Origin: Octopus sinensis
Taxonomy: Eukaryota
Length of the DNA stretch: 64,000 bases
Direction of reading: 5' to 3'
Assembly: GCF_006345805.1 (NCBI RefSeq)
Contig: NC_043011.1
Coordinates: 15,884,464 to 15,948,463, forward strand
The notes under the pieces are model-generated. The model was not told the origin of the DNA. It did not search any database and saw nothing but the letters and a program-made list of their open reading frames with translations. Each line of letters starts with the position of its first letter. The first letter of the stretch is position 1. Positions 59,098 to 59,184 of this stretch are shown here, in pieces. Made by a program: the position numbers and the translations under genes.

Positions 59098-59184
59098 TTC
59101 ATTCTACACGTGTTTCGAAAGGCACAAATTACCAAAATCCGATTGAATAATGGGACCATATTGTGTCTTTCTCTTCAGGAAGAA
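59098..59184 (-). ncRNA. Minimal type I hammerhead ribozyme in the PLE pseudo-LTR
   Basis: Core CUGAAGA (59178-59172). Stem II GAAAGACACAA/UUGUGCCUUUC (11 bp, 1 mismatch). GAAAC-ACGU-GUA with palindromic stem III. Stem I UUCUUC/GAAUGAA. Confidence 0.85.

What the first reader, a model, noticed from the sequence alone, without database searches (positions are those of the whole stretch)
59098..59184. Minimal hammerhead ribozyme with palindromic stem III in the 3' pseudo-LTR
Seen on the minus strand: CUGAAGA, an 11-bp stem II, then GAAAC-ACGU-GUA, with predicted cleavage between 59105 and 59104. Known: PLE hammerheads with a very short palindromic stem III cleave efficiently as dimers. Inference: it processes the element RNA out of read-through transcripts; ~210 nt of element lies 3' of the cut.
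Basis: partly seen in the sequence, partly recalled or inferred. Interest (0 to 1): 0.75.

Follow-up and report, generated by a model that had tools for sequence, protein, structure and literature searches.

The report
Hammerhead ribozyme in young Penelope-like retroelement
A hammerhead-ribozyme motif, predicted to cut RNA in pairs, sits in the end repeat of a young jumping gene with thousands of copies; where those copies start and stop shows that the cut does not set their ends, and suggests that full-length copies are likely made from an endless (probably circular) RNA.

Summary
The motif is real. It is a type I hammerhead on the minus strand: CUGAAGA, stem II with 10 of 11 pairs, an ACACGUGU palindrome, and a predicted cut at 59105/59104. 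It lies in the 3' pseudo-LTR of a 5'-truncated, Hydra-clade-like Penelope-like element (PLE) with 3,608 matching motifs genome-wide. Sister subfamilies keep the core and covary in stems I and II. PLE hammerheads are known, and this scan noted others on other DNA. It is not 'minimal': 55 nt lie between the core halves, and Rfam misses it.

The new part is copy ends. The cut sets neither end: no copy ends 3' there, and 9 of 3,076 begin there. 3' ends lie 70 and about 215 nt downstream. Many copies begin at 59273, an Inr-like site 169 nt upstream, mostly behind an extra G (74 of 100), so they likely come from capped, uncut RNA. ORF-linked 5' repeats never stop there (0 of 31, against 17 of 54), so long copies need a more-than-unit template. 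Best reading: paired cleavage releases a 3.64-kb unit that is circularised or end-joined. Rival: read-through of long tandem arrays. Cleavage itself is untested.

The parts
59172..59178 (-). Hammerhead core, first half CUGAAGA (C3-A9)
   Evidence: 71 of 72 full motifs in the C1 sample read CUGAAGA and 1 CUGAUGA (the regex allowed limited core variants); invariant except N7 in 15 subfamily representatives
59117..59171 (-). Domain II: 11-position stem (10 pairs, A.C mismatch) 59171-59161/59127-59117 and a 33-nt loop region with an inner hairpin
   Evidence: 3 pairs with changes on both sides, 91% of cells paired
59105..59116 (-). GAAA, palindromic stem III ACACGUGU (59113-59106), cleavage triplet GUA; predicted cut between 59105 and 59104
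   Evidence: 8-bp self-duplex -12.3 kcal/mol, sister-family ACAUGUGU -8.0
59081..59104 (-). Stem I 3' arm: 3 proximal pairs, then a distal helix that is partly eroded in this subfamily
   Evidence: (distal helix 83% of cells paired, 2 pairs with changes on both sides)
59179..59199 (-). Stem I 5' arm
59269..59274 (-). Inr-like CAGTTT; inferred transcription start at A59273, 169 nt upstream of the cut
   Evidence: 5' ends pile up here; same motif at the same distance in the sister family; the Inr likeness is recalled
59253..59264 (-). Three-codon upstream ORF (M-G-S-stop) 9 nt after the inferred start
   Evidence: the same codons are in the sister family
59035..59038 (-). Short 3' end of the family (inferred first reverse-transcription start site), 70 nt 3' of the cut
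   Evidence: 14 inverted partner copies among 30 loci end at 59033-59038 followed by (TA)n
58890..59034 (-). About 145-nt optional tail; long 3' end at about 58890 (inferred second start site)
   Evidence: 53 long, 45 short of 98; in tandems this end runs seamlessly into the ORF 5' region
58890..62116 (-). 5'-truncated Hydra-clade-like PLE copy (full unit about 3,640 bp); broken ORF with RT (60926-61924, DKT motif just upstream) and C-terminal GIY-YIG-like domain (59782-60864)
62117..62837 (+). Inverted 5'-truncated partner copy (equals 59839-59121), 99% identical; ends inside the 3' arm of stem II, so it lacks GAAA and the cut site
58676..58889 (.). (TA)n target tract at the 3' end; another TA tract follows 62838

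Best explanation
This is a type I hammerhead motif in the pseudo-LTR of a young Hydra-clade-like Penelope-like element, predicted to cut slowly and in pairs, and it likely serves to cut a repeat-ORF-repeat transcript at both repeats, releasing one 3.64-kb unit that would then be circularised or end-joined and copied into full-length and tandem insertions. Shown: the motif, its conservation and covariation, the two 3' ends 70 and about 215 nt beyond the cut, the pile-up of G-prefixed 5' ends at 59273, and the absence of stops at the cut or at 59273 in ORF-linked 5' repeats. Inferred: 59273 is a capped Pol II start; reverse transcription starts inside the RNA at the two 3' ends (by analogy with PMC11167929); transcripts with one hammerhead stay uncut and yield the abundant short copies; transcripts with two form a double hammerhead. 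On a closed unit, reverse transcription would cross the rejoined cut site, which restores the intact motif, and run on with no end to stop at. Untested: cleavage, dimer dependence, ligation. The window's own copy has one complete hammerhead and a broken ORF, so it is likely a passive product.
For: Core invariant and stems covarying in 15 representatives: 90.5% of 525 cells paired, 5 pairs with changes on both sides, slid controls 31-53% paired. Double hammerhead -53.5 against -41.2 kcal/mol for two monomer folds, global minimum -55.2. 5' ends at 59265-59280: 17 of 54 copies at risk. Genome-wide, 128 non-C against 1,390 C before A59273; G in 74 of the first 100; 30 of 30 inspected are true 5' ends; p 4e-20 against 29% G in the partner strand. 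ORF-linked 5' repeats (76 of 77 junctions mapped): 0 of 50 stop at the cut, 0 of 31 at 59265-59280, 11 run on beyond about 1 kb; Fisher p 1.7e-4. A linear transcript starting at 59273 would force every one of those 31 to stop there. Seamless head-to-tail tandems of about 3,640 bp exist. The circle model was proposed in PMC4209133.
Against: No cleavage, circle or RNA end was observed; only assembled contigs were available. DNA copies cannot tell a ligated circle from an uncut multimer. PMC11167929 found hammerhead mutants did not affect insertion in vitro and no RNA-seq reads ending at the cut in the anole element. PMC4209133 found low activity even in dimers. Naiad PLEs spread without canonical hammerheads. 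Covariation rests on few independent events: pairs with two-sided change were matched by 184 of 500 shuffles, and the structure string was drawn from these sequences. The monomer hammerhead fold is 4 kcal/mol above the minimum-energy fold. This subfamily has eroded distal stem I pairs and an A.C mismatch in stem II. No excess of sequence errors at the cut (10 of 3,076) to mark a rejoining step.
Confidence: 0.5

Rival explanations
1. Long copies are reverse-transcribed from uncut linear read-through RNA of long head-to-tail arrays (master loci that may be collapsed in the assembly). The hammerhead is active but acts on the mRNA side: it removes the cap and the first two of six upstream AUGs and either permits cap-independent translation or sends the RNA to decay.
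For: Tandem copies exist; 11 of 76 ORF-linked repeats extend beyond about 1 kb. The leader from 59273 to the ORF start is 435 nt with six upstream AUGs, the first a conserved three-codon ORF. Hammerhead cleavage in 5' UTRs drives translation in some fungal viruses (PMC13725137, abstract only). Insertion in vitro used uncut RNA (PMC11167929).
Against: With a promoter in every repeat, short arrays would still give many stops at 59273 after one unit; 0 of 31 were seen. Only dimers were seen in the loci fetched; no search for larger arrays was made. Four upstream AUGs remain 3' of the cut.
Confidence: 0.3
2. One reading: the ribozyme frees element RNA from host read-through transcripts, so the cut defines an end of the template.
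For: Position near the element's 3' end; 9 copies do begin exactly at the cut. Proposed role in reviews (PMC6765202).
Against: 9 of 3,076 (0.3%) is within the 0.1-0.4% per base background. 1 of 90 and 0 of 50 stop at 59104-59109. No 3' ends at the cut. The element has its own apparent start site at 59273.
Confidence: 0.1
3. The fold is kept for a structural role (protein binding or positioning reverse-transcription initiation 70 and 215 nt downstream) and rarely or never cleaves in this subfamily.
For: Nearly all copies pass the cut site intact (89 of 90). 5' ends are mildly enriched at 59110-59127, the base of stem II: 11 of 89 and 5 of 50, as if a folded stem stalls the enzyme, though palindromes there could also favour inverted junctions.
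Against: All catalytic core positions and the GUA triplet are kept across subfamilies about 79% identical, which a purely structural role would not require.
Confidence: 0.1

Closest known systems
Type I hammerheads with a small palindromic helix III in PLE pseudo-LTRs (Cervera and de la Pena 2014, PMC4209133; D. virilis, rotifer, shrimp variants)
   Same: Type I topology, pseudo-LTR position, long helix II, palindromic helix III suited to dimers, thousands of dispersed copies.
   Different: 55 nt between the core halves with a second hairpin; bipartite stem I up to about 15 pairs; copies nearly identical within subfamilies; not matched by Rfam.
Hydra-clade PLEs and their hammerheads (Craig et al. 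2021, PMC8557442, File S2; e.g. Hydra-1_Obim)
   Same: C-terminal GIY-YIG-like domain without CCHH, DKT motif, CxxC and CxH motifs, (TA)n targets, inverted 5'-truncated partner, hammerhead near the 3' end with AC...GU helix III.
   Different: Listed Hydra hammerheads have stems II of 3-7 bp and loops of 3-10 nt; this one is unrelated in sequence to the Hydra-1_Obim motif. Unit 3.64 kb, not under 3 kb; RWL for RWK; CxCX5C linker replaced by a Ser/Asn-rich insertion.
PAc Poseidon element of the anole (Frangieh et al. 2024, PMC11167929)
   Same: Hammerhead upstream of two internal start sites that give a short and a long 3' end; uncut RNA can serve as template.
   Different: The tail here is about 145 nt, not 30-40; the hammerhead lies 266 nt before the ORF start instead of overlapping it.
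D. virilis Penelope internal promoter (Schostak et al. 2008, PMC2377424) and cap-derived G at L1/SVA 5' ends (PMC4859970)
   Same: Start site inside the pseudo-LTR upstream of the hammerhead; extra G at complete 5' ends.
   Different: No intron was seen in this leader (contig data only); the extra G marks short repeat-only copies, not full-length ones.
Non-LTR retrozymes (bioRxiv 10.64898/2026.07.22.740005; PMC7229834)
   Same: Type I hammerheads related to PLE repeats, thought to be copied through circular RNA.
   Different: Retrozymes are short non-coding tandem repeats; the short copies here are dispersed, often head-to-head pairs in (TA)n.

Membership tests
Type I hammerhead ribozyme | Core CUGANGA ... 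GAAA ... UH | tested here: met
Type I hammerhead ribozyme | Three helices around the core, chain ends in helix I | tested here: met
   stem I 3 proximal pairs plus extension, stem II 10 of 11, stem III 2 pairs as monomer or 8 as dimer
Type I hammerhead ribozyme | G10.1-C11.1 closing pair | tested here: met
   G59171-C59117 in the window; 4 of 15 representatives G-C, 11 of 15 G-U or a shifted register
Type I hammerhead ribozyme | Covariation supporting the helices | tested here: met
   5 of 35 pairs change on both sides; covariation score above all 500 shuffles but pair count matched by 184 of 500; few independent events
Type I hammerhead ribozyme | Loop I - loop II tertiary contact | not tested
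   internal loop in stem I and a 4-5 nt terminal loop in domain II are present; contact not modelled
Type I hammerhead ribozyme | Self-cleavage after the UH triplet | not testable with these tools
   needs an assay or raw end-mapping reads; only contigs were offered
Rfam hammerhead models (Hammerhead_1 and related) | Score at or above the gathering threshold | tested here: not met
   no hammerhead hit at gathering or at E<=10
Minimal PLE hammerhead (min-HHR, PMC4209133) | No helix III or loop 3 needed, helix I 4-5 bp, helix II 7-8 bp | tested here: not met
   palindromic helix III present, domain II 55 nt, helix I bipartite; it fits the palindromic-helix-III variant instead
Penelope-like element (EN+) | RT plus C-terminal GIY-YIG, pseudo-LTR from partial tandems, inverted truncated partner, optional tail, hammerhead | tested here: met
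   Pfam gave no hit for the two window ORFs, so domain identity rests on motif alignment
Hydra clade (PMC8557442) | DKT in place of DKG | tested here: met
   SDKTRN
Hydra clade (PMC8557442) | N-terminal RWK motif | tested here: inconclusive
   RWL at the matching place
Hydra clade (PMC8557442) | EN without CCHH; CxxC and CxH near the conserved E and N | tested here: met
   CNLC and CPH in natural copies L082 and L062
Hydra clade (PMC8557442) | CxCX5C linker | tested here: not met
   one Cys in this family, none in the sister family, in a Ser/Asn-rich insertion; present in 9 of 9 aligned relatives. Filed therefore as Hydra-clade-like
Hydra clade (PMC8557442) | (TA)n insertion preference | tested here: met
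   all 3' ends at 58890 or 59035 of this family in the 30 loci run into TA repeats
Hydra clade (PMC8557442) | Placement in the RT tree with reference Hydra sequences | not tested
   reference proteins were seen only as text in the supplement and compared by eye

The most novel reading that the evidence does not exclude
The copies of this family are a genomic record that Penelope-like elements use two templates: capped, uncut RNA for short repeat-only copies, and a hammerhead-cut, circularised unit-length RNA for ORF-bearing and tandem copies. That would be direct support for the rolling-circle origin of pseudo-LTRs proposed in 2014, with hammerhead pairing as the switch between the two products.
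Probability: 0.4. Interest if true: 0.75.

Novelty: new variant of a known kind. Interest (0 to 1): 0.55.

Why it matters
What PLE hammerheads do in vivo is open: PMC8557442 calls their function unclear, and PMC11167929 found them dispensable for insertion in vitro. This young family rules out two simple templates for ORF-bearing copies, namely linear cut RNA and linear RNA from the element's own start site. It leaves circle against long multimer, which one RNA experiment can decide. The same end-mapping can be run on any young PLE family. The long domain II also shows that Rfam misses thousands of such motifs in one genome.

Tried and rejected
Rfam: no hammerhead hit; weak matches to FHbp thermometer, U6atac (E 2.3) and EBv-sisRNA near 59435-59640 are far below gathering and were rejected as chance. 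Pfam: nothing for the two PLE ORFs. Unconstrained RNAalifold on 15 representatives recovered domain II but paired the core elsewhere and not stem I, so the hammerhead structure was entered by hand. Within-subfamily copies (98-100% identical) are uninformative for covariation. Sequencing runs: no RNA holder listed; 8 contig sets of guessed RNA runs were laid. They cannot show ends or strand, and no GT..AG joint in the leader was listed; this is not evidence either way. Idea that the cut leaves a 5'-end peak: rejected. Idea that the cut is a 3' end: rejected (exact pattern followed by TA repeat only). Idea that the 59273 peak is only an effect of the CCATGG palindrome: unlikely, since the 30 inspected junctions join many different partner positions and TA repeats, and about 7 of the 23 G's are not explained by the partner; many others are, so the G may act as 1-nt microhomology. 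Lunse et al. 2017 (PMC5785218) is not held and is known here only through the review PMC6765202.

Full report
Observation. On the minus strand the window reads stem I 5' arm (59181-59179), CUGAAGA (59178-59172), stem II (59171-59161 with 59127-59117), GAAA (59116-59113), the palindrome ACACGUGU (59113-59106), A17 (59105) and the stem I 3' arm (59104-59102). Stem II has 10 of 11 pairs and closes 33 nt that hold a second small hairpin. The full arrangement occurs once in the window and in 0 of 1,000 shuffled windows. Rfam finds no hammerhead at gathering score or at E<=10, probably because 55 nt separate the core halves.

Context. The motif lies in the 3' untranslated part of a retroelement on the minus strand, 62116 to about 58890, flanked by (TA)n. 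An inverted 99% identical partner at 62117-62837 ends inside stem II. The ORF is broken in this copy. Pfam gives no hit, but 21 unnamed proteins match the RT part at 35-42%. Alignment of a natural copy with nine of them shows RT, a C-terminal GIY-YIG-like domain, and CxxC and CxH motifs. DKT, the N-terminal sequence and (TA)n targeting match the Hydra clade as described in PMC8557442 (section 11 and supplement passages read). The CxCX5C linker is missing in this family and its sister, and no tree was built, so I call it Hydra-clade-like. The host genome has 2.72 Gb; that it is a cephalopod is a recalled impression, not tested.

Family. The best-scoring copies are 98-100% identical. A motif pattern matches 3,608 places and 0 when reversed. 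A sister family about 79% identical and intermediate subfamilies keep the core. In 15 hand-picked representatives, 90.5% of 525 cells pair; three stem II pairs and two distal stem I pairs change on both sides; slid controls pair 31-53%. These are few independent events: the pair count was reached by 184 of 500 shuffles. The sister palindrome ACAUGUGU still self-pairs (-8.0 against -12.3 kcal/mol). A double hammerhead is computed at -53.5 kcal/mol, two monomer folds at -41.2, and the global minimum at -55.2.

3' ends. Copies end at about 58890 or at 59035, that is about 215 and 70 nt beyond the cut. In the 30 loci, chosen for the long end, 14 inverted partners end at 59033-59038. In a sample from the first 100 of 2,393 anchor places, 53 of 98 mapped copies are long and 45 short. 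The sister family has the same two ends. This matches the tail made by two internal start sites in PMC11167929 (parts 1-2 of 4 read). No copy ends at the cut followed by TA repeat. In tandems the long end runs directly into the ORF start region; the unit is about 3,640 bp.

5' ends at the cut. Of 3,076 exact matches to the 29 bases after the cut, 19 have a non-reference base in front; 9 are true 5' ends and 10 are mutations. In the samples, 1 of 90 and 0 of 50 copies at risk stop at 59104-59109, where about 1.7 of 140 are expected from background. Linear cut RNA is therefore not a main template. A mild excess at 59110-59127 (11 of 89; 5 of 50; the two samples share a few copies) may reflect stalling at stem II or palindrome-aided junctions.

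5' ends at 59273. 17 of 54 copies at risk stop at 59265-59280, about ten times background (an overlapping sample gave the same picture). Genome-wide, 128 matches have a non-C base before A59273 against 1,390 with C. Of the first 100 listed, 74 have G, 24 A and 2 T (my count). All 30 inspected are true 5' ends. None of the 9 ends at the cut has G. Untemplated G at complete L1 and SVA ends is attributed to copying the cap (PMC4859970, passages), and D. virilis Penelope has an internal promoter in its repeat (PMC2377424, passages). The sister family has the same CAGTTT motif 169 nt before its cut, and 10 of 25 copies at risk end 150-169 nt upstream of the cut. I infer a capped start site; most of these copies carry an intact hammerhead (the regex found it in 25 of 30), so their template was uncut.

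ORF-linked 5' repeats. All 77 exact repeat-ORF junctions in the assembly were listed and 76 were mapped; rows with under 900 nt of context that reached the locus edge were dropped. None of 50 stops at the cut and none of 31 at 59265-59280 (Fisher p 1.7e-4 against 17 of 54). Loss is roughly constant at 0.001-0.003 per base, and 11 run on beyond about 1 kb. A linear RNA from 59273 through one unit would stop all 31. Long copies therefore come from a more-than-unit template.

Mechanism. The most economical reading is the circle model of PMC4209133 (parts 1-2 of 4 read). A repeat-ORF-repeat transcript holds two hammerheads, cuts at both, and the unit is ligated or bridged by template jumping; copying from either internal site then crosses a restored hammerhead and meets no end. 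One-hammerhead transcripts stay capped and uncut and give the short copies (confidence 0.5). The main rival is uncut read-through of long tandem arrays, with the ribozyme acting on translation or decay of a 435-nt leader with six upstream AUGs (PMC13725137, abstract only) (0.3). DNA alone cannot separate the two, and PMC11167929 argues against a required role in insertion in vitro. RNA data did not help: only contigs of guessed RNA runs were offered.

Novelty. Hammerheads in PLE repeats, Hydra clade included, are known, and this scan noted decayed ones in another genome (e1-9946204); no look-alike stretch or note for this genome was on record. The long domain II is a variant; a plant PLE motif with a long loop II is listed in the same supplement. 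In the listings of five searches I saw no paper on cap-G ends or on this contrast between short and ORF-linked PLE copies; the library lacks most subscription journals, Lunse et al. 2017 was not held, and the supplement of PMC11167929 (end maps) was not read. The bioRxiv retrozyme paper was read in part 1 of 5 and PMC13282606 in passages (no mention of hammerheads). Verdict: real, a new variant of a known kind, with copy-end evidence that makes an open question testable. Interest 0.55.

Noticed in passing
L082:2169-4043 (-); L062, L076 (sister family); window about 60130-60560 (-): The CxCX5C linker, which PMC8557442 associates with (TA)n targeting, is replaced by a Ser/Asn-rich insertion of about 110 aa or more in both families, yet they still insert into (TA)n.
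   Followed up: partly
window 59253-59264 (-); L062: A three-codon upstream ORF (M-G-S-stop) in good start context is kept in both families near the inferred start site, overlapping a small hairpin; it may regulate translation.
   Followed up: partly
window 58890-59034: The optional tail is about 145 nt, much longer than the 30-40 bp described for PLEs; in head-to-head pairs one arm usually has it and the other lacks it.
   Followed up: partly
window 62830-62840: The inverted partner's 3' end falls at the equivalent of 59121, inside stem II, not at either standard end; possibly a later deletion.
   Followed up: no
L024:2966-3255 and L061-L080: A second young sister family (2,665 first-look candidates, 96-100% identity among the best) and several intermediate subfamilies coexist in the genome.
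   Followed up: partly
window 59110-59127: Mild excess of 5' truncations at the base of stem II, often joined through short homologies such as the GAAACA/TGTTTC pair.
   Followed up: partly
window 50543-52959 (-): Broken LINE-like reverse transcriptase region (Pfam RVT_1, E 1.6e-11).
   Followed up: no
window 13200-13676 (+): Open frame that looks like a Tc1/mariner-type transposase fragment (recalled likeness; no Pfam hit).
   Followed up: no
L076: A 503-aa frame resembling the C-terminal part of an L1/Tx1-type LINE lies next to a sister-family copy (recalled likeness).
   Followed up: no
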